DNA from: Nakamurella sp.
Lineage (GTDB): Bacteria > Actinomycetota > Actinomycetes > Mycobacteriales > Nakamurellaceae
Reading direction: 5' to 3'
Length of the DNA: 64,000 nucleotides
Assembly (NCBI GenBank): GCA_039916325.1
Contig: JBDSLP010000168.1
Span: forward strand, 1,100 to 65,099
Below the pieces are notes generated by a model. That model worked only from the letters and a program-made list of their open reading frames with translations. It had not been told where the DNA came from and did not search any database. Below are positions 4,958 to 51,934 of the stretch, piece by piece. A program made the position numbers and the translations under genes. Position 1 is the stretch's first letter; each line of letters starts with the position of its first letter.

Positions 4958-6279
4958 CCGCCCCGAGTCCGGTGACCGCTCCGACAGACCCGACCGCCCC
5001 GACCGGCGAGCCCGGGGACACCCGGTGGGGCCGGGCCGCCCGGGCGATGATGCCGGCCCGCGGGGGCGGCGACGGCATCACGGACGGTGGCGCCCCACTC
5101 ACCGAGCACGGTTGGCGGGCCAGCGTGATCGGGCTGCATCTGGCGATGGGGGTGGTCCTCGGGTTGGCGCTGGTGACCGTGCTGCTCGAATCGCCGCCGG
5201 GCAACCGCAGTTGGCTCGCGCTCGGCGCTCTCGCCGTGCTCGGAGCGGCGTACCTGATCCGCGGTGCCCGGGCCATCTCCGGCGACGATCCGAACGGTGC
5301 GCTCATCTACCTGAGCGTGCTGATCGTGATCACCGGGGTCGTCGCGTGGACGGCGCCGGGCGCCCTGTTCCTGCTGTTCCTGGCCTATCCGCAGATCTGG
5401 TTCCTGGTCGAGAGCTCCAAGCCCGGGGTGATCTGGACCTGCCTGCTCGCCGCGTCCAGCGGGATCGGGCTGACCGTGGCGGCGGTGCAGCAGGATGTGA
5501 CGCCCTGGTCGGCGGTGACATCGTCCGGGATCGGACTGGTGTTCAGCGTGCTGATGGGTACCTGGATCGCCCGGGTCCTCGCGCAGAGCCGGCAGCGGGC
5601 CGAGCTGATCGCCGAGTTGGAGGCCAGCCGGGCGGAGGTTGCCCGGCTGCACCACGACCAGGGCGTCGCCCAGGAACGTGAACGGATGGCCCGCGAGATC
5701 CACGACACCCTGGCCCAGGGATACACCAGCATCGTGATGCTCGCCCAGACCGCGCTGGGTCAGCTCGACGATCGCCCCGACGTGGCTCGCGAAAGGATCG
5801 AGCTCGTCGAGGAGGTGGCCCGGGAGAACCTGGCCGAGGCCCGCCGGGTGGTGGCCGCCTTCACGCCGCCGTCGCTGGACGGCTCGACCCTGATCGAGGC
5901 GCTGGCCGGGCTGGCCGCCCGGTTCGAACGCGAGACCGGCATCGCCGTGACCGCTGATCTGCCGCCGGCCGCCGTGGTCGACCGGGACCGCGAGGTGGTG
6001 CTGCTGCGGGCCGCCCAGGAGGCACTCACCAACGTCCGCCGACACGCCGCGGCCACCACCGTGAAGCTCAGCCTGACGGATGGGCAGGACGTGTCGTTGG
6101 CGGTGACGGACGATGGCGTGGGGTTCGATGCGACCACCGCCGGGACCGGCCTGGCCGGGTTGCGCAGCCGGGTGGTCCAAGGCGACGGCACGGTCCAGGT
6201 CCACAGTCGCCCCGGCGCAGGCACCACGGTGATCGTGACCGTACCGGCCGCGCAGCCGACGTCCACGCCGTGCCGATGA
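4954..6279 (+). CDS. Sensor histidine kinase, HisKA_3/NarX-LiaS type, multi-TM with no large extracytoplasmic domain
   Basis: GTGA overlap with the permease stop. TM-rich N-terminus, H-box MAREIHDTLAQ, and HATPase_c motifs (EALTNVRRHA, DDGVGF, GTGLAGL). The exact start is uncertain. Confidence 0.85.
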   Translation: MTAPSPVTAPTDPTAPTGEPGDTRWGRAARAMMPARGGGDGITDGGAPLTEHGWRASVIGLHLAMGVVLGLALVTVLLESPPGNRSWLALGALAVLGAAYLIRGARAISGDDPNGALIYLSVLIVITGVVAWTAPGALFLLFLAYPQIWFLVESSKPGVIWTCLLAASSGIGLTVAAVQQDVTPWSAVTSSGIGLVFSVLMGTWIARVLAQSRQRAELIAELEASRAEVARLHHDQGVAQERERMAREIHDTLAQGYTSIVMLAQTALGQLDDRPDVARERIELVEEVARENLAEARRVVAAFTPPSLDGSTLIEALAGLAARFERETGIAVTADLPPAAVVDRDREVVLLRAAQEALTNVRRHAAATTVKLSLTDGQDVSLAVTDDGVGFDATTAGTGLAGLRSRVVQGDGTVQVHSRPGAGTTVIVTVPAAQPTSTPCR

Positions 6280-6908: not shown

Positions 6909-6970
6909 CCACCGGACCTGCAGCTACCGGCCCTGCAGCTACCGGACCTGCGGTAGCTGGGCCGGAAACG

Positions 6971-7012
6971 CCGCAAGGGCGGTCACCCCGGATGGGATGA
7001 CCGCCCTTGCGG
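6971..7012. terminator. Strong hairpin between the convergent regulator and cspA genes (candidate bidirectional terminator)
   Basis: Perfect inverted repeat ccgcaagggcggtca / tgaccgcccttgcgg with a 12-nt loop, 17 nt past the cspA stop. Confidence 0.6.
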
Positions 7013-25930: not shown

Positions 25931-26701
25931 TCAGGTCGGGACCAGGTACTCCTGGAGATAACGCATGTCCTCAGCGGTGCCGTCCACCCCGCCCGGCGTC
26001 TCCACGATGACGTCACTCCGGGCCGCCGCGCACACCGCGGCGATCAGCTGCGGGTCGATGGTGCCGCTGTCGAAGTTGGCGTGCCGGTCGGCGCCGGAGT
26101 CGAAGGTGTCGCGACTGTTATTGGCGTGCACCAGGTCGATCCGGCCGGTGATGGCCATCACCCGGTCGACCACGTCGTCCAGCGGCTCACCACCGCAATA
26201 GGCGTGACAGGTGTCGAGACAGAACCCGACCCCGAACTCCCCGACCGCGTCCCAGAGCCGGGCCAACCGATCGAAGCGCCGGGCGATGGCGTTGTCGCCG
26301 CCGGCGGTGTTCTCGATGAGGATCGGCAGGCCGAACTCCTCCCGCTGGAACACCTTGCGCCAGTTCGCGAAGCCCTCGGCGGGATCGTCACCGTCGTTGA
26401 GGTGCCCACCGTGCACGATCAGGCCCTTGGCGCCGAGGTCGGCGGCGGCCGCGGCGTGCTGGGTAAGGATCTTGCGGCTCGGGATCCGGATCTTGTTGTT
26501 CCGGGTGGCCACGTTGACCAGATAGGGGGCGTGTACGTAGAGGGGGATCTCGGTGGCCCGCAGTTCCGCCGCGAACGGATGTTCTGGCGGCTTCTTCCAG
26601 CCCTGCGGATCGCCGAGGAAGAACTGGACGGCCTGCGCGCCGGACTCGCGTGCCTCCGCCAACGGATCATCCGAACGCACATGTGCACCGATCGCCACCA
26701 T
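25931..26701 (-). CDS. nfo: Endonuclease IV (deoxyribonuclease IV)
   Basis: From MVAIGAHV...: IPLYVHAPYLVNVATRNNKIRIPSRKIL...IVHGGH...LIENTAGG...GFCLDTCH...IDLVHANNSRD...DRHAN, collinear with mycobacterial End/Nfo as I recall it. Confidence 0.9.
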   Translation of the reverse strand: MVAIGAHVRSDDPLAEARESGAQAVQFFLGDPQGWKKPPEHPFAAELRATEIPLYVHAPYLVNVATRNNKIRIPSRKILTQHAAAAADLGAKGLIVHGGHLNDGDDPAEGFANWRKVFQREEFGLPILIENTAGGDNAIARRFDRLARLWDAVGEFGVGFCLDTCHAYCGGEPLDDVVDRVMAITGRIDLVHANNSRDTFDSGADRHANFDSGTIDPQLIAAVCAAARSDVIVETPGGVDGTAEDMRYLQEYLVPT

Positions 26702-26775
26702 GATCCGAGGGTAATCGGCACCGCCGACAGTGACCCCGGCCGGACGCCCGACCACGGCCGGACAGGCAACTGTCG

Positions 26776-27363
26776 GTGGCCCCGCCTACCCTCACCGACG
26801 TGCGCACCACGGCCTTCCGTCCCTCGCTGCTCGTGCGGCTGGTGATGCTGGCGGCCGCCTACAGCCCGCTGCTGCTGCTGCTCGCGGTACTGAACTCGTT
26901 CCGCCTCGAGTGGCTCCGCTGGGTGCTGGTCGGGCTCAGCGCGGCCGGCGTCGTGGGCACACTGCTGTTCCTGTTCCTCGCCATCCCCCGCCGCAACGCC
27001 ACTCCGGAGCTGCTGAGCAGGGTCAAGCCCCGCGACGCCGAGGCGCTGAAGTTCTTCGCGTCCTACGTGGTGCCGTTCTTCGTGACCACCTCGGCGCCGA
27101 CCGCGGCCCGCTGGGGGCTGCTGATCTACCTGCTGATGATCGCAGTGCTCTACGTCCAGTCCGATCTCTACTACTCCAACCCGCTCCTCGCGCTGTGGGG
27201 CTACCGCGTCTTCGAGGCCGACCGGCCGGACGGCGGCTACCTGCTGTTGATCACCCGGTCCTGGTACCTCGCACCCGGCCAGAGCCGCGACCTCATCCCG
27301 CTGGGCGGCTACGTCCACTTCGACCGCACCACCCGCCGCCAACGCCGGACAGGACTCCGATGA
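26776..27363 (+). CDS. Small 4-TM membrane protein, KwaA-like (putative Kiwa defence component A)
   Basis: 195 aa with hydrophobic segments SLLVRLVMLAAAYSPLLLLLAVL, LRWVLVGLSAAGVVGTLLFLFLAI, FFASYVVPFFV and WGLLIYLLMIAVLYV, then a roughly 60-aa soluble tail. Its stop overlaps the next gene's start (ATGA). Confidence 0.5.
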   Translation: MAPPTLTDVRTTAFRPSLLVRLVMLAAAYSPLLLLLAVLNSFRLEWLRWVLVGLSAAGVVGTLLFLFLAIPRRNATPELLSRVKPRDAEALKFFASYVVPFFVTTSAPTAARWGLLIYLLMIAVLYVQSDLYYSNPLLALWGYRVFEADRPDGGYLLLITRSWYLAPGQSRDLIPLGGYVHFDRTTRRQRRTGLR

Positions 27364-28343
27364 CGACCGACACCGACACCGCGGCGGACGAGCTGCGTCG
27401 CCTGCTCATCGGTCTCACCCCCACCCTGCTGCTGCGGCTGTCGATGCTGATGGTCACCGAGGTGCAGACCGACCCGGTCGCCTACGAGGTACCGGTCAGC
27501 GCGGGGTTGGCCGCAGAGCTGTTGGCCCAGTGCTCGGAGTCGGCCGGCGCCGCCGCGGATGCGGAGCTGCGGCCGGCCGACCCCGGGCTGAGCCCCAGTG
27601 CCCAGCAGTGGCTGTACTCGCCGGTCCTGTCGGACAGCACGCTGGCTGCGGTCGACGCGCTGGTCACCCGGCCGTCGCACCCGCAGTACGACCGGACGGT
27701 CGAGTTCGGCCGGAAGAGCCTGCTGGTCCTGCGGGTCCGCGACGCCGATGGCCGGGATCTCGGCCGGCTCTACCAGGCGTTCTCGCCGGAGCGAGCCCTG
27801 CAGCGGCGCAAGGTGTGGGCCTTGTGGAGCGGCGAGCAGTTCGTCTCGTTGACCGAAGAACCGCTGGTCATCGACCGCGGGCTACGACTGATCGTGCTCG
27901 GTGGGCCCCCCGCACAGACGGTGGTCATGCAGTCCGCGGCCGCCTACCAGGCGATGTTCGGCGCATTGCCGGAGTTGCGGAAACAAGCGGAGCGGACCTA
28001 TCAGGCGTCGATCGGCAAGCTCGACATCGTCGACGGCGACAAGCTGGCCCAGGCCTGCCGGTCCGACCTGAACATGATGCGCAAGCTCGCCAGTATCCAG
28101 GCCAAGCTCGACCGCCCGGGGTACGCCGACGCGGTGACGATGCCTGCTCTGATGACGTTCCTCCAGGCCCATCCGGAGATCGACGTGCCGGTCCAGGACG
28201 CCGACGGGCCGCGCCCCCGGTTGGTGTTCAGCTCGGATGCGCAACACCGATGGGTGATCCTCAAGCTGCTCGATGACGACTTCCTGCACTCCGAACTCAC
28301 CGACATCACCTACGAGGCGAACTCCAAGACCCAGCTCACCTGA
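27360..28343 (+). CDS. Soluble 327-aa protein, KwaB/DUF4868-like (putative Kiwa defence component B)
   Basis: ATG 27360 lies within ORF 26730..28343. No enzymatic motif recognised. Size, coupling to the 4-TM gene and the C-terminal ...RWVILKLLDDDFLHSELTDITYEANSKTQL fit my recollection of DUF4868 proteins. Needs an HMM check. Confidence 0.5.
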   Translation: MTTDTDTAADELRRLLIGLTPTLLLRLSMLMVTEVQTDPVAYEVPVSAGLAAELLAQCSESAGAAADAELRPADPGLSPSAQQWLYSPVLSDSTLAAVDALVTRPSHPQYDRTVEFGRKSLLVLRVRDADGRDLGRLYQAFSPERALQRRKVWALWSGEQFVSLTEEPLVIDRGLRLIVLGGPPAQTVVMQSAAAYQAMFGALPELRKQAERTYQASIGKLDIVDGDKLAQACRSDLNMMRKLASIQAKLDRPGYADAVTMPALMTFLQAHPEIDVPVQDADGPRPRLVFSSDAQHRWVILKLLDDDFLHSELTDITYEANSKTQLT

Positions 28344-29589
28344 GGACTTCCAGGCCGGCCCGCTCCGCTCGCCAGGCCGGCAGGTACAGCGGGGCCGCGA
28401 CCGCGATGACGATCCCGGCCACCACGAACGCCACCCCGATCCCGCTGCCGCCGGCCAGCGCGGTCAGCACCAGGATGCCGACGGAGGCGGCGGGCTGGGA
28501 CACCATCGAGTTGATCGACACCACGGTCGCCCGGTGCTCCGGTCCGACCTGACGGTGCAGCAGCGTGCTGTGCAGCGCGTTGGACGCGCCGTGCACCAGG
28601 TAACACGCCAGGAACGCGGTCAACAGGCCGACCACCCCGCCGACCAGGCCCATCGTCACCACGGTGGCGCCCTGGACGAGTCGGAGCAGCGCCGCGCTGC
28701 GCGCGACCCCCCACCGGCGGGCCAGCAGCAGCGCGACCGCAGACCCGGCCGCCGACGCCGCCCAGGCGGCCGAGCCGGCCGGCCCGATGACCGCCGCCGC
28801 GGTGTCGGGACTACCCAGCAGGTCGGCCAGCCGGACCGGGGTCAGTGATTCGAACGCCGGCATCCCGAAGCTCCAGAAGAGCTCCACCGACACCAGCGCG
28901 AGCAACACCTTCGACGTCCGCAACAGCGCGACACCGCCGCCGATCACCTTCGGGACTCCACGGACGCCGGCGAGGAGACCACCCTCGTCGCCGCCGCGAC
29001 GGGGTTCCGACATCAGGGCCAGGGTGAGCGGCACCAGCACGACCTGGATCACCACGGCGGCCGCCACCGGCAACGCCAGCCGTTCGATCCCGTCGAACGG
29101 CTGCCAGCTGACCAATGGCAGAGCCAGCGCCGAACCGGCCGCGATGGCGATGCTCAGCGTGGCATTGCCGGCCGACAGTCCACGCTCGATCGGGTAATCC
29201 GGCGCCGTCCGGTGGGTCGCATCGACGTACCAGGCCTCCAAAGGACCGGAATCCAGCGCCCGGAACACCCCCATCAGTGCGCTGGACACCGCAAACGCTG
29301 CCATGCTGTGGGACAGAAAATACAGCGTGGTCGCCACGATCCCGATGACCCCGGCCAGCACCAGGACCGGGCGGCGGCCCCACGAGTCGGTCAGGCCGCC
29401 GGTCGGAAGCTCCAGTACCAGCACCACCAGCCCCTGGATGGACATCACGACACCCAGCTGAGCCAGCGTCAACCCCCGTGACAGCGGGAGCAGCGCCTGC
29501 ACCGGGATCGTCAGGCCGACAGCCAGCCAGCGCAGCGACATCAGGAGCAGATACCGGCCGCGGACCTGGACAACGGAAAGGGTCTCCAC
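28336..29589 (-). CDS. MFS transporter (12-TM)
   Basis: 417 aa, hydrophobic throughout, with a GGLTDSWGRRP loop 2-3 motif. Confidence 0.85.
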   Translation of the reverse strand: METLSVVQVRGRYLLLMSLRWLAVGLTIPVQALLPLSRGLTLAQLGVVMSIQGLVVLVLELPTGGLTDSWGRRPVLVLAGVIGIVATTLYFLSHSMAAFAVSSALMGVFRALDSGPLEAWYVDATHRTAPDYPIERGLSAGNATLSIAIAAGSALALPLVSWQPFDGIERLALPVAAAVVIQVVLVPLTLALMSEPRRGGDEGGLLAGVRGVPKVIGGGVALLRTSKVLLALVSVELFWSFGMPAFESLTPVRLADLLGSPDTAAAVIGPAGSAAWAASAAGSAVALLLARRWGVARSAALLRLVQGATVVTMGLVGGVVGLLTAFLACYLVHGASNALHSTLLHRQVGPEHRATVVSINSMVSQPAASVGILVLTALAGGSGIGVAFVVAGIVIAVAAPLYLPAWRAERAGLEVLR

Positions 29590-48100: not shown

Positions 48101-48489
48101 AGGACCTGCTGACAGAACTGGTGCGTGGTCGCGATGGTCGCACTGTCGAAGTCGGCCAACGCGCTGGCCAACCGCCGCCGCCGGACCGCGACCTCGACGT
48201 CGTCGCCGGTGGCGAGCAGGCAGAGCAGCTCGTCGTCACCGGTCCGGGCCAGCGCCGGCCGGGCCAGACCCCGCTCGGCCTTGACGAGCTGTGCCCGGAC
48301 GCGTTCGCGCAATTCCTGGCTGGCGGCGCGGCCGAAGGTGACGACCAGCAGTTCGTGCAGGCGCGCATGCCCCTCGGCGACGTACCGCGCGACCAACGCG
48401 CCGACCGTGTGGGTCTTGCCGGTGCCCGCGCTGGCCTCCAGGACGGTCGTTCCGGTGGGGAGGTCGCCGCAGAGATCGAAGGGGTTCAC
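45148..48489 (-). CDS. recB: Exodeoxyribonuclease V beta subunit RecB (UvrD-type helicase + PD-(D/E)XK nuclease)
   Basis: VNPFDLCGDLPTGTTVLEASAGTGKTHT, VDEFQDTDPVQW, and C-terminal LTGSLDLVV...LVADYKTN nuclease motif. GTGA overlap with the recC stop. Confidence 0.9.
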   Translation of the reverse strand: MNPFDLCGDLPTGTTVLEASAGTGKTHTVGALVARYVAEGHARLHELLVVTFGRAASQELRERVRAQLVKAERGLARPALARTGDDELLCLLATGDDVEVAVRRRRLASALADFDSATIATTHQFCQQVLTGLGVAGDTDASAQLVEDLDELVVEVVEDLYIRGFGHARADAPLFDYAEALTLGRAAIGDPATRLEPADADPASPAGLRRRFAIGVRKEVDRRKQDRGILGYDDLLSRLAAVLGPQHRAARERMRARWKFVLVDEFQDTDPVQWQVLSLAFSGASTLILIGDPKQAIYAFRGGDVATYLAAAAGAAGQSTLRRNFRSDAPLIDSLQVLLGEAALGDERIVVRPVVAQHPGSRLAGAPRPAPCRLRVIRREQFGEAGSTRIPIAKVRPFVAKDLAIDVAALLTSGATFDGRPLVAGQVAVLVATHAQAAMVQKALLARGVPAVVAGSGSVFATPAADEWLVLLEALEQPHRSDRVRAAALTPFIGRSAAELATGGEELTDADGGQLRQWADLVTRRGVAALLETVSELGLGERVLRRRNGERRLTDLRHVGQSLHAAAVDGGLGLAALVEWLRGRRLEAAKDTAAERTRRLESDAAAVQVLTLHASKGLEYPVVYLPFAFDRWVGEPGILLLHDAHGDRILDVGGTGSTGRPERERRAAAEAAGESLRLFYVGVTRAQSQVVLWWAPTATTWSSALHRLIFGRTPGQAAVPDVAPAVGDVEAHQRFVTLAAAGGPTVEPALFVDVPPETPPPAALPAMSVGRFRRELDVVWRRTSYSALSAAADHVPGATVTSPEVTSEPETGEREDESLPVLVLADDHADDDLPSPMAALPKGTGFGTLVHAVLEHVDPMASDLDAELLMRCQDEVSRHPGLVVADELAAALVPVLRTPMGPLVDGRTLADIPVGDRLAELDFELPLAGGDRIDAEVRLVEMAPLLRRYLPADDPLLGYADRLETPELGGQPLRGYLTGSLDLVVRLPGPRYLVADYKTNWLGEGPDTPLTAWHYRPDALDRVMAQSDYPLQAMLYCVALHRYLRWRQPDYRPEEHLGGVLYLYVRGMCGPDTPVVDGRVSGVFGWRPPAELVVALSDLLDGNAVGTAAGANR

Positions 48490-51400
48490 AGCGATTCCCG
48501 CCGTTCCGCGGTCAACATCGGCAGCCAGAGCCGGAGAGCCAGTTCGGTGAACCGGGACGGTTCGCGCATCCAGTGCTCGTCCGGGCGGGACAGCTCCCGG
48601 TTCAGGGCGGCGAACGGCGCGGCGGGGCCCCAGATCCGGGCGAAAGCGGGGTCGGCGTCCTCGCCCGGGAACTTGTCGGACACCCAGCGCTGACGGGCGG
48701 CGGTGAGGGAGTCCTCCGGGCTCCGCCGGCGGTGGCGCCCCTCGGCGTAAGCCAGGCCGGTCTTGAGGGGCAGCGGCAACGGCGCCCGCATCGCCCGGTC
48801 GTAGAGGTCCACGAGCTGCTCGAGCACCTGCCCGGCGAGCTCGGGCGGCACGGGCCCGAGCGTCGACTGCTCCGGCGCTCCCGCGCCACGACCGACGCTG
48901 ACCGCGGACCAGCCGACCGACGGATGGGTGACCGTCAGCGCCAACAGTTGGATCCAGGCCTGCAGGCGGGCCTTGGCCCCGAGCCGGCTGTAACCGATCG
49001 CAACGACGGTGGTGTCGTGGACACCGCTGACGGTGCCGGTCAACCACCGGTCCCCCAGCGTCACCCGGACGTCGGCGGACGTCTGCTCCCCGGAACGTAG
49101 CGCGCTGGTGGCGTTGACCAGGGGGTCCACGTCGGCCATCACGGTGCCCAGGATGCGCTGGCCGAGGGGACCCGGCGGCAGCGTCCCGCGTCGCCATTCG
49201 GCCTGGCGGGTGGTGTCGGGGTCCTGCCCACCGAGTCGGTCGCGCAGCAACCGGTCCCCGATCGCCCACTGTTGGAGGGCGTCGAGTTCCACCGGCAGTG
49301 CGTCCACGGGGTCGTCGGCCTCGAATCGGACCGCGACGTCCAGCCGCTGCCGGAGAAAGCCCCGCGCGGGGTTGTGCAGCATCGAGATCAGCCGGTCGAG
49401 ATCGAGATCGATCGGCGGCAGGTCGGGCAACGGCTGACTGAGAAAGGCGGGCGCCGACTCGCGAGGGCCGGCCGCGGCCCGAGCCGACGCGAGGACCGCG
49501 GGATCGAAGCTGAACGGTCCGGGCACACCGAGCTCCCCGGGCACCACGTTGCGGGCGTCGAACGGCTGCAGCGGATGCCTGACCAGCACCTGCCCGCGGG
49601 CCGGGGTCGTGGGGTCGATCTTGGCCATGTCGTCCAGCGTGTCGAGCAGCTCACCGATCGGAACGGACGCCGGTCGGGGCGCCCCGGTGCGCTCGTCGGC
49701 GCCGGTGTAGGTGATGACGACAGCCTCGGTTGCAGCGAGCAGCGCGTCCAGGAGCAACTGGCGGTCCTCGCCCCGGCGATCCCGCTCCCCGACGACCGGG
49801 TCGCGGGCGAGCACGTCGTCACCGTCCGGGTGGGCTGCCCGCGGGAACACCCCGTCGTCCAGGCCGACCAGGCAGACGATCCGGTGTGGCACCGAGCGCA
49901 TCGGCACCATCGTGCAGACCGTCAGGTTTCCGGTGCGGAAGTTCGCCCGGGTCGGGCGGCCACCGAGCCGGCCGGTCAGCAGGGCCCGCACGTCGGGCAG
50001 CCGCATCGGTGCGGTCGCGTCCGGCCCGGCGCCCGCGGCGATGTCGGCGAACTCGCGGTCGAGTTCACCCTGCTGCCAGGAGTCGTCACTGCTGACGCTG
50101 GTCAGGCCGGCGACCGCCGACGCCAGCGTCGTGAGCCAGTGGCCGACCGGCTGCGGACCGGTGAGCAGGTCCACCGACCGGTGCAGGCGGTTGACCAGTT
50201 CGGCCAGCCGACCGGCCAGGTCGACGTCGCCGCTACCGACATCGTCGACGGGAAGGGCCAGGCCGAGCCAGTTGCCGCCGTCCTGGGCCATCGTGGCGCC
50301 GAGCAGGATGCGGTCGAGACCGGCCCGCCAGGTGCCCTGGGGGAATTGACTCAGGCCGAACGGCAGCCGGTGGGCAGCGTCCAGGCCCCACCGGACCCCG
50401 GAGTCGGCGGTCCAGCGGGTGATCGTTTCGAGATCGTCGTCGGTGAAGCCGAACCGTCGACGCACCGGTGGCCAGGCGGCCAGATCCAGGAGCTGGGATG
50501 CCGTCACCCGGGCGTCGGCCAGGTCGAGCAGCTTCGTCACGGTCGCCAGCAGCGGGTTGGTCTGGATCAGCGCGCGGTCGGCCAACCGGACCCGCAGCTG
50601 GTGGGCCGGATGCCATTCTCGACGACGTCGGCCAAGCCGAAGGCCGCCGCGACGAGTGGTGCATAGACCTCGATGTCGGGACACATCACCAGGATGTCGC
50701 GCGGTTCCAGCGTCGGGTCGGCGGCGAGTAGGCCGACGAGAACCTCACGCAGCACGTCGATCTGGCGGCTCGGCCCGTGGCAGGCATGGACCTGGACACT
50801 GCGGTCGTCAGGCGCCAGCGGAAGCTTGACGTCAGGCCGGCGGTCGTCGCGCAGGTCCGCCTGCAGCCGGCCGAGCAGGGTGGGCGGCGGTTCGGCACCC
50901 GGATGATGGCGGTCGACCGAAGGCCGGGTCGACAACGCCAGCTGCAGCTCCCGGGAGTCCCGACCGAGGGAGGACAGCAGCGGGTGCTCCGGAGTCAGCA
51001 GGGTCGGATCGGCGTCGCGCCGGATGACCGCCGGAACCTCGACGACGGCGATCCGCTGCCAGAGCACCGGTGACGGGTGTGGCAGCCAGAGGTGGACGTC
51101 GCGGTGCTCGGCGAGGGCATCGACGAGGTCGAGGTGGGCGGCCGGCAACCGGGTCGGCCCGAACAGCGAGATCCGCTCCGGGAGGTCCGCGGTGCCGGTG
51201 TCGACGGCGGCGCGGATCCGGTCGACCGGGTCGAGGCCGTCGATGCGGGCCCGCGTGCGTCGCCACAGCTCGGGCTGCCAATTCAGGTCGGAGGCGAGTG
51301 GTCCATCGAAGCCGTCGGTGTCGCGGCCGGCCGCCCAATCGGCCAGCACACCGGGACGTTGCGTCGCATAGTCGTGGAACAGCCCCGCGAGGCGGCGGGC

Positions 51401-51811
51401 CACCGCGTAGCGGCGACCCCGCCGGTGGACCAGCTCGGACTCGGGGGCGCCGACCCCCAGGTGGATGCTCAGGACGTCGCACCACGGCTCACCGGCTGCG
51501 GCGTCGATGACGTCCAGCAGCGGCCAGACGAGGCTGTCCGGCGCCCACGGGTCGCGGTCGCCGACGTCGAGCAGCTCGGTGAACAACCGGGTGGGTGAGG
51601 GGAACCGGACGCCCGCGCAGATGCCGTCGGCCCGCCCGTCGCGACGCCCGAGGCGCCGGGCCAACTGCTGGGTGAGCCACCGCTCGATGCCCTTGGCCGG
51701 GACGGCAACGACCTCCACCGCGAACGGGTCGGCCAGCGGCTGCGCCATCAGCTCACCGAGCGCGTCGACCAGTCGGTCGGCCCGTTCGGCCCGATGAACG
51801 AACAACGTCAC
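48486..51811 (-). pseudogene. recC: Exodeoxyribonuclease V gamma subunit RecC, interrupted by a single-nucleotide frameshift near 50613
   Basis: The N-terminal frame (stops at 50567) reads ...DILVMCPDIEVYAPLVAAAFGLADVVENG. The C-terminal frame (ORF 48486..50684) continues HPAHQLRVRLADRALIQTNPLL.... Adding one base would give a continuous protein of about 1108 aa. Likely start is GTG 51811, after ggaaggggg. Confidence 0.75.
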
Positions 51812-51934
51812 GAGGCCCCCTTCCGACTGCACACTTCCCGGTTCCCCCGCCGGTCAGCCCAGAGTAGACAAGGGGTCCGACAGTGACCGACCCACACCGG
51901 ACCTTCGACCCGCGCGCCGCCGGGCGGGCCCGCC

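What the first reader, a model, noticed from the sequence alone, without database searches (positions are those of the whole stretch)
26776..28343. Two-gene Kiwa-like (KwaA 4-TM + KwaB/DUF4868-like) module between base-excision-repair genes and an MFS gene
Seen in sequence:
- A 195-aa protein has four hydrophobic helices and a short soluble tail.
- Its stop overlaps (ATGA, 27360-27363) the start of a 327-aa soluble protein in which I recognise no catalytic motif.
- That second protein ends ...RWVILKLLDDDFLHSELTDITYEANSKTQLT.
- The pair is transcribed divergently from nfo and converges on (and overlaps by 8 nt) an MFS gene.
- No neighbour looks functionally linked.

Established knowledge: the Kiwa anti-phage system (Doron et al. 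2018) is exactly a small 4-TM KwaA plus a roughly 300-aa DUF4868 protein, KwaB.

Inference: the assignment rests on architecture, sizes and my recollection of the family, not on a search. If it is not Kiwa, it is still an uncharacterised membrane-sensor + effector pair with defence-system-like organisation. As I recall the literature, Kiwa and RecBCD are connected through Gam-type phage inhibitors, so the interrupted recC in this same window (separate finding) makes the pair more interesting.
Basis: partly seen in the sequence, partly recalled or inferred. Interest (0 to 1): 0.78.

Follow-up and report, generated by a model that had tools for sequence, protein, structure and literature searches.

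The report
Actinobacterial Kiwa pair with DNA-damage promoter
The two genes are a divergent member of the known Kiwa anti-phage system in a Nakamurella genome, and, unexpectedly, this whole actinobacterial Kiwa lineage carries a conserved promoter of the type used by the PafBC DNA-damage response, which suggests the defence is switched on by DNA-damage signals.

Summary
The kwaA product (most likely 26800-27363, 187 aa) hits 14 PADLOC KwaA models. A family profile hits solved E. coli KwaA at E 2e-13. Its AF2 model matches only KwaA chains in the PDB (TM 0.52-0.63) and shows 4 TM helices plus a 6-strand barrel. KwaB (27360-28343) passes Pfam PF16162. A broad profile hits solved KwaB at E 2e-20, and its model matches only KwaB chains (TM 0.41-0.47).

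Both proteins fall below the NCBIfam equivalog cut-offs. GenBank already labels KwaB "KwaB-like"; KwaA is "hypothetical". dN/dS is 0.14-0.16, so both genes are maintained. There is no defence island or mobile element nearby, yet the pair sits at three or more unrelated loci within Nakamurella.

New here: an exact match to the published PafBC promoter consensus tGTCgg(N10)tA(N3)T ends 7 nt before the kwaA start, a leaderless arrangement. The window's only other two strict matches precede nfo and recC. The motif precedes kwaA in 28 of 30 distinct actinobacterial loci (22 strict; about 0.005 expected per region). No paper in the searchable library links Kiwa with PafBC. This regulation is predicted from sequence, not shown.

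The parts
26771..26792 (+). PafBC-type (RecA-NDp) promoter of kwaAB: TGTCGG-TGGCCCCGCC-TACCCT. The -26 element is TGTCGG and the -10 is TACCCT. It ends 7 nt before GTG 26800, which implies a leaderless mRNA.
   Evidence: It is an exact match to the published consensus tGTCgg(N10)tA(N3)T (PMC8635444). It is one of only 3 strict matches in 64 kb. For the closely related pattern TGTCRGTG-N8-TANNNT, the shuffles gave 0.00 matches. It is conserved in the orthologous loci while the spacer and flanks vary. The motif is present upstream of kwaA in 28 of 30 distinct loci.
26800..27363 (+). kwaA: membrane protein of 187 aa (195 aa if the alternative GTG 26776 is used). It has four TM helices plus a cytosolic beta-barrel.
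   Evidence: PADLOC: 14 KwaA models, best 3.4e-17. NCBIfam KwaA: 60.5 bits, below the cut-off of 100. phmmer against PDB 9mrg_A: 2.4e-8. Profile against PDB KwaA: 2.3e-13. AF2 model: pLDDT 83.9. Foldseek: the top 7 hits are all KwaA chains, TM 0.52-0.63, and the next hit has E 0.36. Homologs carry PF28043 KwaA. GenBank MEO5833947.1 is 'hypothetical protein', 187 aa.
27360..28343 (+). kwaB: soluble protein of 327 aa with an N-terminal alpha/beta domain and a C-terminal DUF4868 domain. Its start overlaps the kwaA stop (ATGA).
   Evidence: Pfam PF16162: 46.2 bits against a gathering score of 26.3. PADLOC: 4 KwaB models. NCBIfam KwaB: 47.2 bits, below the cut-off of 200. Profile A1 against PDB KwaB: 5e-7. 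Broad profile A3: 2e-20 over chain residues 88-313. AF2 model: pLDDT 85.9, pTM 0.82. Foldseek: the only significant hits are KwaB chains, E 2e-7 to 3e-5, TM 0.41-0.47, aligned over the full length. GenBank names it 'Kiwa anti-phage protein KwaB-like domain-containing protein'.
26708..26729 (-). PafBC-type promoter of the divergent nfo gene: TGTCGG-CGGTGCCGAT-TACCCT. It ends 6 nt before ATG 26701. It is context, sharing the 98-bp intergenic region with the kwaA promoter.
   Evidence: Strict consensus match. It is conserved in L001, L002, L005 and L006. 14 of 82 nfo loci carry the motif.
25931..26701 (-). nfo-type AP endonuclease gene (256 aa). It is a divergent neighbour, not part of Kiwa, but is predicted to be co-regulated.
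   Evidence: PF01261, 1.7e-34. The ortholog in N. deserti is 256 aa.
28344..28358 (.). Junction of a deletion of about 1.46 kb relative to N. deserti. An SDR gene, a 96-aa ORF and the native MFS C-terminus are missing. This creates the 8-nt kwaB/MFS overlap.
   Evidence: blastn homology to L001 ends at 28343 and resumes at 28359, skipping L001 8015-9479. The MFS C-termini differ. The SDR gene is present in L001, L002 and L006. The same junction is present in the independent assembly L120.

Best explanation
This is a chromosomal, divergent actinobacterial member of the Kiwa anti-phage system. It is predicted to be transcribed from a PafBC-type DNA-damage-response promoter.

Shown here:
- kwaA encodes a KwaA-fold membrane protein with 4 TM helices and a 6-strand cytosolic barrel.
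- kwaB, translationally coupled to it by an ATGA overlap, encodes a KwaB-fold protein with an alpha/beta N-domain and a DUF4868 domain.
- Both genes are under purifying selection.
- The two genes plus their promoter occupy at least three unrelated loci in one genus.
- An exact PafBC consensus ends 7 nt before the start codon and is conserved across the lineage.

Inferred by homology to E. coli Kiwa (PMC11785009): KwaA tetramers and KwaB dimers form a membrane supercomplex. The complex senses membrane perturbation at phage attachment or DNA-entry sites. KwaB then binds the incoming DNA through DUF4868 and stalls replication, and so late gene expression, without killing the cell.

Inferred from the promoter and the PafBC literature (PMC8635444, PMC11804915): ssDNA arising from DNA damage, prophage induction or phage replication activates PafBC. 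PafBC adapts RNAP-SigA to the -26 element and raises kwaAB transcription as a leaderless mRNA, together with nfo and recCBD. Kiwa levels would therefore rise when phage threat or DNA injury is signalled.
For: Kiwa identity:
- HMM hits for both proteins.
- Direct and profile matches to the solved structures: KwaA 2.3e-13, KwaB 2e-20.
- Confident AF2 models whose only significant PDB neighbours are KwaA and KwaB.
- The KwaA secondary-structure order matches the published protomer (one search compared).
- The low-confidence KwaB loop 149-165 aligns with the E. coli DE loop that contacts KwaA.
- The barrel-capping loop Pro and Tyr are kept: P100 to P105 and Y105 to Y110.
- The pair is always adjacent, and overlapping or abutting, in all related loci.

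Maintained function: dN/dS is 0.14-0.16, similar to the neighbours at 0.11-0.19.

Mobility: there are three unrelated loci within Nakamurella, plus others in M. abscessus and Jatrophihabitans.

Promoter:
- The consensus comes from PMC8635444.
- There are 3 strict hits in 64 kb. All lie just upstream of correctly oriented genes, and two of those are DNA-repair genes.
- RecB levels depend on PafBC in M. smegmatis.
- 22 strict and 6 relaxed matches occur in 30 distinct kwaA upstream regions, against 0.016 hits per kb per strand in the background.
- G2, T3, C4, T17, A18 and T22 are invariant in 27 of 27 motifs, while the spacer varies.
- 17 regions are leaderless and in frame with kwaA.
Against: - There are no functional data for any actinobacterial Kiwa.
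- Both proteins score below the NCBIfam equivalog cut-offs.
- Identity to the E. coli proteins is only 13-19%, and the KwaB global TM-score is below 0.5.
- Only 2 of the 6 AF3-predicted DNA-contact residues of E. coli KwaB are identical (D172, R241). R142, R167, K187 and N134 are not kept.
- KwaB is acidic overall, with pI 5.0.
- There is no defence island, no compositional anomaly, and no phage or plasmid carriage of this clade.
- The pair is fixed in all five closest genomes. That pattern is also what a housekeeping gene would show.
- The promoter is a sequence prediction. pafBC itself was not looked for, because the window is only 64 kb. I noticed the motif in this locus before testing it elsewhere.
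- The binomial P value is not corrected for shared ancestry.
- Two loci (L104, L108) lack the motif.
Confidence: 0.6

Rival explanations
1. The pair is a Kiwa homolog that, in this lineage, has been recruited as an effector of the DNA-damage response itself rather than serving mainly as an anti-phage system. An example would be a membrane-tethered DNA-binding complex that restrains replication or holds DNA after damage.
For: - The DNA-damage promoter is conserved lineage-wide and is shared with nfo and recC.
- The location is chromosomal, away from any defence island or mobile element.
- The pair is present in all five closest genomes.
- Purifying selection is at housekeeping level.
- E. coli KwaB binds DNA non-specifically and stalls forks.
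Against: - The pair sits at different loci in different Nakamurella species, and its carriage is patchy: among mycobacteria it was found only in some Mycobacteroides. That is typical of accessory defence genes.
- All five tested Kiwa variants from three clusters were anti-phage.
- Other defence systems are also controlled by WYL-type, damage-sensing regulators (stated in the abstract of PMC10693628).
Confidence: 0.15
2. The pair is an ordinary Kiwa system that is expressed constitutively. On this reading, the TGTCGG-N10-TAnnnT element is read by another factor, such as a different WYL regulator or sigma factor, or is only a generic promoter, and it has no link to DNA damage.
For: - PafBC binding has been shown only in mycobacteria, and pafBC was not located in this genome.
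- The 3' half of the motif is the ordinary SigA -10.
- The general sigma-70 scan cannot see this promoter class and found nothing.
Against: - The 5' element TGTCGG(TG) lies at exactly the published distance and is invariant where the published motif is invariant, at the GTC triplet.
- The only other strict matches in the window precede two DNA-repair genes. One of them belongs to an operon whose product depends on PafBC in M. smegmatis.
- The recA-promoter GTC triplet and the PafB DNA-contact residues are reported as conserved across Actinobacteria.
Confidence: 0.15
3. The pair is a decaying or non-functional remnant of a Kiwa system.
For: - The deletion of about 1.46 kb ends exactly at the kwaB stop codon.
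- KwaB is split by a frameshift in L006, and in L002 the match begins only at residue 29.
- recC is frameshifted in the same window.
Against: - Both ORFs are intact and are identical in an independent assembly.
- dN/dS is 0.14-0.16.
- The C-terminal hallmark motif is intact.
- The models are confident.
- L002 and L006 are metagenome-assembled genomes. I suspect, but did not verify, that they are long-read assemblies, in which single-base indel errors are common.
Confidence: 0.03

Closest known systems
Kiwa anti-phage system of E. coli O55:H7 / ECOR strains (KwaA + KwaB; Doron et al. 2018; Zhang, Todeschini et al. 2025, PMC11785009; PDB 9mrg, 9mrr, 9mrx, 9mtn)
   Same: - Two-gene kwaA-kwaB operon.
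- KwaA of about 190 aa with 4 TM helices and a six-strand cytosolic barrel built from ICL1 and the C-terminus.
- KwaB of about 320 aa with an alpha/beta N-domain and a DUF4868 domain.
- A conserved C-terminal motif: KLLDDDFLHSELTDITYEA here, KLMSDDYLQSDLTKIIYMS in E. coli.
- A flexible loop at the position of the DE loop that contacts KwaA.
- The predicted folds retrieve only these structures from the PDB.
   Different: - Sequence identity is 13-19%.
- Both proteins score below the NCBIfam equivalog cut-offs.
- The KwaB global TM-score is only 0.41-0.47.
- Four of the six predicted DNA-contact residues are not kept.
- The host is an actinobacterium with about 70% G+C.
- There is no mobile-element or defence-island context, whereas about 53% of Kiwa genes in the published survey co-localise with mobile elements.
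- The mRNA is predicted to be leaderless, driven by a PafBC-type DNA-damage promoter. PafBC is described in the papers read here only for Actinobacteria.
PafBC / RecA-NDp regulon of mycobacteria (Mueller et al. 2018, 2021; Schilling et al. 2025)
   Same: - The promoter architecture tGTCgg(N10)tA(N3)T, with a -26 element and no -35.
- In the same window it also precedes DNA-repair genes (nfo, recC).
- Leaderless layout, which is common in Actinobacteria.
   Different: - The gene behind the promoter here is a phage-defence module, not a repair gene.
- The regulon was mapped in M. smegmatis and M. tuberculosis, and neither appeared among the named homologs of this Kiwa clade.
- No paper in the searchable library connects the two.
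Defence systems controlled by WYL-domain regulators (BrxR-BREX and CapW-CBASS recalled from my own knowledge; the general theme is stated in the abstract of PMC10693628)
   Same: A WYL-domain, nucleic-acid-sensing transcription factor couples expression of a defence system to a DNA-damage or ssDNA signal.
   Different: In those cases a dedicated regulator gene sits next to the system and usually acts as a repressor. Here no regulator is adjacent. The system appears to be plugged into the global, activating PafBC regulon through its promoter alone.

Membership tests
Kiwa (KwaA/KwaB) | Two adjacent, co-oriented genes, kwaA followed by kwaB | tested here: met
   The ATGA overlap lies at 27360-27363. 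The same pairing is seen in all related loci.
Kiwa (KwaA/KwaB) | KwaA: sequence membership (KwaA HMMs / PF28043) | tested here: met
   14 PADLOC KwaA models, best 3.4e-17 with near full-length coverage. All homologs carry PF28043 KwaA. Profile against the solved KwaA: 2.3e-13. The local Pfam copy lacks PF28043.
Kiwa (KwaA/KwaB) | KwaA: four TM helices plus a six-strand cytosolic beta-barrel formed by ICL1 and the C-terminus | tested here: met
   The AF2 model has H18-38, H45-69, E76-79, E82-85, H87-106, H109-128 and four C-terminal strands. Foldseek: the top 7 hits are KwaA chains, TM 0.52-0.63. This is a predicted structure, not an experimental one.
Kiwa (KwaA/KwaB) | KwaB: DUF4868 domain (PF16162) above the Pfam gathering score | tested here: met
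   46.2 bits against 26.3. Profile against the solved KwaB: 2e-20.
Kiwa (KwaA/KwaB) | KwaB: N-terminal Rossmann-like alpha/beta domain | tested here: inconclusive
   No single-sequence match covers residues 1-136. The broad profile reaches back to E. coli residue 88. The Foldseek alignment covers the full length, but the global TM-score is 0.41-0.47 and the rmsd is 9-10 A. A per-domain superposition was not possible with these tools.
Kiwa (KwaA/KwaB) | NCBIfam equivalog scores (NF041622 KwaA at least 100 bits; NF041623 KwaB at least 200 bits) | tested here: not met
   60.5 and 47.2 bits. This is a divergent subfamily rather than an equivalog of the characterised proteins.
Kiwa (KwaA/KwaB) | Residues probed experimentally in E. 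coli: the KwaB DNA contacts N134, R142, R167, D169, K187 and R233, and the interface loop P100/N101/Q103 | tested here: inconclusive
   D169 to D172, R233 to R241 and P100 to P105 are kept, and Y105 to Y110 is invariant in the clade. R142 to Q, R167 to V, K187 to A and N134 to A are not kept. These columns vary across the wider family, so they do not define it.
Kiwa (KwaA/KwaB) | KwaA4-KwaB2 membrane supercomplex; DNA binding by KwaB; protection against phage or conjugation | not testable with these tools
   This needs biochemistry and phage challenge. No multimer prediction was available.
PafBC (RecA-NDp) regulon | Promoter motif tGTCgg(N10)tA(N3)T with a strictly conserved GTC and a SigA-type -10 | tested here: met
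   26771-26792 reads TGTCGGTGGCCCCGCCTACCCT. The consensus comes from PMC8635444.
PafBC (RecA-NDp) regulon | The motif is placed so that the 5' element lies at -23 to -28 and the -10 lies just upstream of the transcription start | tested here: inconclusive
   The -10 ends 7 nt before GTG 26800, which fits a leaderless transcript. 17 of 28 loci show the same in-frame layout. No TSS data exist.
PafBC (RecA-NDp) regulon | Evolutionary conservation of the motif upstream of orthologs and at independent loci | tested here: met
   28 of 30 distinct kwaA upstream regions have it (22 strict), against about 0.005 expected per region. The core positions are invariant while the spacer varies.
PafBC (RecA-NDp) regulon | pafB and pafC present in the genome; transcription induced by DNA damage in a PafBC-dependent way | not tested
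   pafBC was not searched for in the window, and the rest of the genome is not available. Indirect support comes from the only other strict motifs in the window, which precede nfo and recC. RecB levels depend on PafBC in M. smegmatis.

The most novel reading that the evidence does not exclude
Across Actinobacteria (Nakamurella, Mycobacteroides abscessus and M. franklinii, Jatrophihabitans and many soil metagenome lineages), a distinct Kiwa clade travels as a three-part cassette: a PafBC promoter, kwaA and kwaB. It is a genuine member of the ssDNA-activated PafBC DNA-damage regulon and is co-induced with RecBCD, the other target of Gam-type inhibitors. On this reading, an actinobacterial cell raises a membrane-based, non-abortive phage defence whenever DNA damage, prophage induction in the population or phage replication produces ssDNA. 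That would be a direct transcriptional link between the global DNA-damage response and an innate immune system. It would also offer a candidate mechanism for the reported effect of PafBC on mycobacteriophage resistance.
Probability: 0.55. Interest if true: 0.65.

Novelty: new variant of a known kind. Interest (0 to 1): 0.5.

Why it matters
The Kiwa assignment on its own is routine: GenBank and Pfam already flag KwaB.

What adds value is the regulatory wiring. Little is known about how Kiwa expression is controlled. Kiwa has not been studied in Actinobacteria, and it is not mentioned in the text or the held supplements of a 2023 survey of actinobacterial defence systems. The PafBC regulon has been treated as a DNA-repair programme.

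A promoter conserved across the lineage would tie the two together. That gives a directly testable hypothesis in a clinically relevant species, M. abscessus, where phage therapy is in use and Kiwa carriage varies between strains. It would also predict that DNA-damaging antibiotics change phage susceptibility.

The result also corrects the start codons of kwaA genes in M. abscessus and in other genomes.

Tried and rejected
- Local Pfam scan of KwaA: no hit, because the copy predates PF28043.
- Single-sequence PDB search for KwaB: only E 0.19. Profiles solved this.
- 'Empty-site' synteny test. I anchored on nfo in 80 genomes. The whole synteny block dissolves below about 80% nfo identity, so no clean site with nfo and the MFS gene adjacent but without Kiwa exists. 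The test was replaced by showing that the pair sits at other loci.
- Defence-island test. Ten neighbouring proteins against PADLOC gave no hits.
- Compositional-island test. G+C is flat at 0.67-0.72. The only tRNA is 30 kb away.
- Generic sigma-70 promoter and terminator scan: no promoter, and one terminator-like site inside kwaA that is within the chance expectation.
- LexA SOS box search: nothing near the pair, and the count is within the chance expectation.
- Phage and plasmid carriage: no phage hit, and only three distant plasmid KwaB hits at 22-26% identity.
- Search for prior reports: Kiwa+PafBC found one paper with no link drawn, DUF4868+PafBC found none, and DUF4868+mycobacter found one irrelevant paper.
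- The original PafBC regulon paper (Cell Rep 2018) is not held.
- Exact-product look-up of the truncated RecC: not on record.
- Pseudogene reading: rejected on dN/dS and on the identical independent assembly.
Full report
OBSERVATION

The two ORFs are present as described. The first is 26776-27363 (+, GTG, 195 aa). The second is 27360-28343 (+, ATG, 327 aa, ending ...YEANSKTQLT). The stop and start overlap as ATGA. Upstream on the opposite strand lies an AP-endonuclease (nfo-type) gene (PF01261, 1.7e-34). Downstream, an MFS gene (PF07690) converges on the pair, and its stop lies 8 nt inside kwaB.

In a genome of about 70% G+C, long ORFs occur in every frame. The evidence that these two are genes is therefore homology plus purifying selection. 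Against N. deserti, dN/dS is 0.16 for kwaA and 0.14 for kwaB, compared with 0.11 for nfo, 0.19 for the MFS gene and 0.18 for the M13 peptidase.

IDENTITY

The second protein passes the Pfam gathering score for PF16162 'KwaB' (46.2 vs 26.3 bits, residues 137-314). It also hits four PADLOC KwaB models. The first protein hits 14 PADLOC KwaA models; the best scores 3.4e-17 and covers residues 18-183. Both fall below the NCBIfam equivalog cut-offs: KwaA scores 60.5 against 100, and KwaB 47.2 against 200. So this is a divergent subfamily.

Against solved structures, KwaA matches E. coli KwaA (9mrg) directly at 2.4e-8, and a 39-sequence profile matches at 2.3e-13. KwaB alone reaches only E 0.19, at the C-terminus. 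A 25-sequence profile gives 5e-7. A 100-sequence profile built from an exhaustive search gives 2e-20 over chain residues 88-313, which extends well into the N-terminal domain. That exhaustive search found 863 cluster representatives at E <= 1e-3.

The AF2 models are confident: KwaB has pLDDT 85.9 and pTM 0.82, and KwaA has pLDDT 83.9. The KwaA model has four long helices, two strands in the TM2-TM3 loop and four C-terminal strands. That is the same inventory as the published protomer, which has 4 TM helices and a six-strand barrel formed by ICL1 and the C-terminus.

By Foldseek, the only significant PDB neighbours of the KwaA model are seven KwaA chains (E 7e-7 to 1.6e-5, TM 0.52-0.63); the next hit has E 0.36. 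For the KwaB model they are four KwaB chains (E 2e-7 to 3e-5, aligned over the full length, TM 0.41-0.47); the next hit has E 0.14. The low KwaB TM-score is a real caveat. The fold is recognisably KwaB, but it is geometrically divergent or the two domains are oriented differently.

I mapped the experimentally probed E. coli residues through the profile. D169 to D172, R233 to R241 and P100 to P105 are kept, and Y105 to Y110 is invariant in the clade. R142, R167, K187 and N134 are not kept. These columns vary across the family and do not define it. The low-confidence loop 149-165 aligns with the E. coli DE loop that contacts KwaA.

GenBank already names the exact KwaB protein 'Kiwa anti-phage protein KwaB-like domain-containing protein [Nakamurella sp.]' (a MAG). 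It calls KwaA 'hypothetical protein', 187 aa.

CONTEXT AND MOBILITY

The block M13 peptidase, DivIVA-like, AlkA-like, nfo, [kwaA-kwaB], MFS, STAS, hypothetical, GGDEF/EAL is kept in N. deserti and in the other four genomes with at least 84% nfo identity. All five carry the pair. Beyond that the synteny dissolves.

Elsewhere the intact pair sits at unrelated loci:
- N. flavida: between iron-ABC genes and a GGDEF/EAL gene followed by cyd genes.
- N. panacisegetis and another Nakamurella MAG: next to Rpf/LysM and cobalamin genes.
- M. abscessus: in a region with variable flanks, one variant carrying a TnsA-like gene.
- Jatrophihabitans: among sugar-metabolism genes.

There are no defence genes nearby, no G+C anomaly, and no close relatives on sequenced phages or plasmids.

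Relative to N. deserti the window lacks about 1.46 kb immediately after the kwaB stop. The missing stretch held an SDR gene, a 96-aa ORF and the native MFS tail, and its loss explains the 8-nt convergent overlap. An independent assembly that is 99.9% identical has the same junction.

THE UNEXPECTED PART: THE PROMOTER

I aligned the nfo-kwaA intergenic region across the syntenic genomes. Two invariant blocks appeared, and they are reverse complements of each other. Each is followed by a TAnnnT hexamer just before a start codon. The published in vivo consensus for the mycobacterial DNA-damage activator PafBC is tGTCgg(N10)tA(N3)T. Its 5' element lies at -23 to -28, and its 3' part is the SigA -10 (PMC8635444).

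The window contains exactly three strict matches on both strands of 64 kb. A closely related pattern gave 0.00 matches in the shuffles. The three matches are:
- 26771-26792 (+), ending 7 nt before kwaA GTG 26800.
- 26729-26708 (-), ending 6 nt before nfo ATG 26701.
- 51882-51861 (-), ending 28 nt before the first start codon of recC.

Two of the three are therefore DNA-repair genes, which makes them internal positive controls. RecB levels fall in M. smegmatis lacking pafBC (PMC5656591).

The motif also precedes kwaA at every other locus type examined. I fetched 29 more kwaA loci from metagenomes and de-duplicated the upstream regions. Of 30 distinct regions, 22 carry the strict motif. Six more carry variants that keep the invariant GTC and the spacing. 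Two have none.

The background is 57 strict hits in 1.74 Mb, or 0.016 per kb per strand. That is about 0.005 expected per 320-nt region. The nominal binomial P is 4e-44, not corrected for shared ancestry. By my own grouping of the loci, roughly fifteen distinct sequence groups are represented.

Across 27 aligned 22-nt motifs, G2, T3, C4, T17, A18 and T22 are invariant while the spacer varies. That pattern indicates selection on the element itself. In 17 regions a start codon in frame with kwaA lies 6-8 nt after the -10, which is a leaderless layout. In 11 regions there is a short Shine-Dalgarno leader. This supports GTG 26800 as the kwaA start. It also implies that the annotated starts in M. 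abscessus and L090 lie about 50 nt too far downstream.

For comparison, only 14 of 82 nfo loci carry the motif. No LexA box is present.

MECHANISM

By homology to E. coli Kiwa (PMC11785009), KwaA tetramers and KwaB dimers form a membrane supercomplex. It is triggered by phage-induced membrane perturbation. KwaB then binds the entering DNA through DUF4868 and stalls replication and late transcription without abortive infection.

From the promoter and the PafBC literature, ssDNA-activated PafBC (PMC11804915) would adapt RNAP-SigA to the -26 element and raise kwaAB expression together with nfo and recCBD.

All of the regulation is inferred from sequence. pafBC itself lies outside what I could examine.

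In the library, Kiwa and PafBC are mentioned together in only one paper, and no link is drawn there. That paper cites a 2025 report that PafBC affects mycobacteriophage resistance. The model species in which the regulon was mapped did not appear among the named homologs of this clade.

THE RecBCD/Gam IDEA

In E. coli, Gam inhibits both KwaB and RecBCD, and each acts as a sink that protects the other. Here recC-recB-recD lies about 15 kb away. recC has a single frameshift near 50.6 kb, and I cannot tell whether it is real or an assembly error. The only new fact is that both loci carry the same promoter type. The rest is speculation.

VERDICT

The finding is real and the Kiwa interpretation is supported, but the protein assignment alone is routine and partly already annotated. 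The pair is a divergent actinobacterial Kiwa lineage. Its lineage-wide PafBC-type promoter is, as far as the searchable literature shows, unreported, and it is directly testable.

Noticed in passing
window 28344-28358 (junction); L001 8015-9479: Relative to N. deserti the window lacks about 1.46 kb: an SDR gene, a 96-aa ORF and the last ~15 codons of the MFS gene. The deletion ends exactly at the kwaB stop and gives the MFS protein a new C-terminus (...RAERAGLEVLR). The same junction is present in an independent assembly that is 99.9% identical (L120).
   Followed up: yes
window 48486-51832 (-), frameshift near 50600; motif 51861-51882 (-): recC is split into two overlapping ORFs by a single frameshift (...VVENG | HPAHQLRVRLADR...). 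recB and recD follow. A strict PafBC-type promoter motif ends 28 nt upstream of the first recC start codon. In a MAG I could not tell whether the frameshift is real or an assembly error.
   Followed up: partly
window 26708-26729 (-) and nfo 25931-26701 (-): nfo has its own exact PafBC-type promoter ending 6 nt before its ATG, back to back with the kwaA promoter in a 98-bp intergenic region. The likely nfo start is ATG 26701 (256 aa), not the upstream GTG 26755. 14 of 82 actinobacterial nfo loci carry the motif.
   Followed up: yes
L085-L087 (M. abscessus) about 6950-7001; L090 about 5949-6001: The annotated kwaA starts appear to lie about 50 nt too far downstream. An in-frame GTG or ATG 7 nt after the -10 hexamer gives N-termini (VITGDYRPSILVR..., MRTSAFRPSLPVR...) that match the conserved AFRPS region of the family.
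   Followed up: partly
L006 8316-9279; L002 6895-7001: In two MAGs of close relatives kwaB looks disrupted. L006 has a frameshift at about residue 210. In L002 the match begins only at residue 29, and there is a gap after kwaA. L006 also has an N11 instead of an N10 promoter spacer. These could be sequencing indels or real decay.
   Followed up: no
L007 8776-10000 and 10760-14958: In this more distant syntenic relative, about 1.2 kb is inserted between nfo and kwaA and about 4 kb between nfo and the AlkA-like gene. About 3.6 kb separates kwaB from the MFS gene. The contents were not examined. The kwaA promoter motif is still directly upstream of kwaA.
   Followed up: no
It has no Pfam hit at E <= 1e-5 and no PADLOC hit. 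Its identity was not established here.
   Followed up: no
literature (PMC10482375): A 2023 genomic survey of actinobacterial antiviral systems does not contain the word Kiwa or Nakamurella in its text or in the supplementary files held. This suggests the clade was not detected by the models used then. Not all of the supplements may be held.
   Followed up: partly
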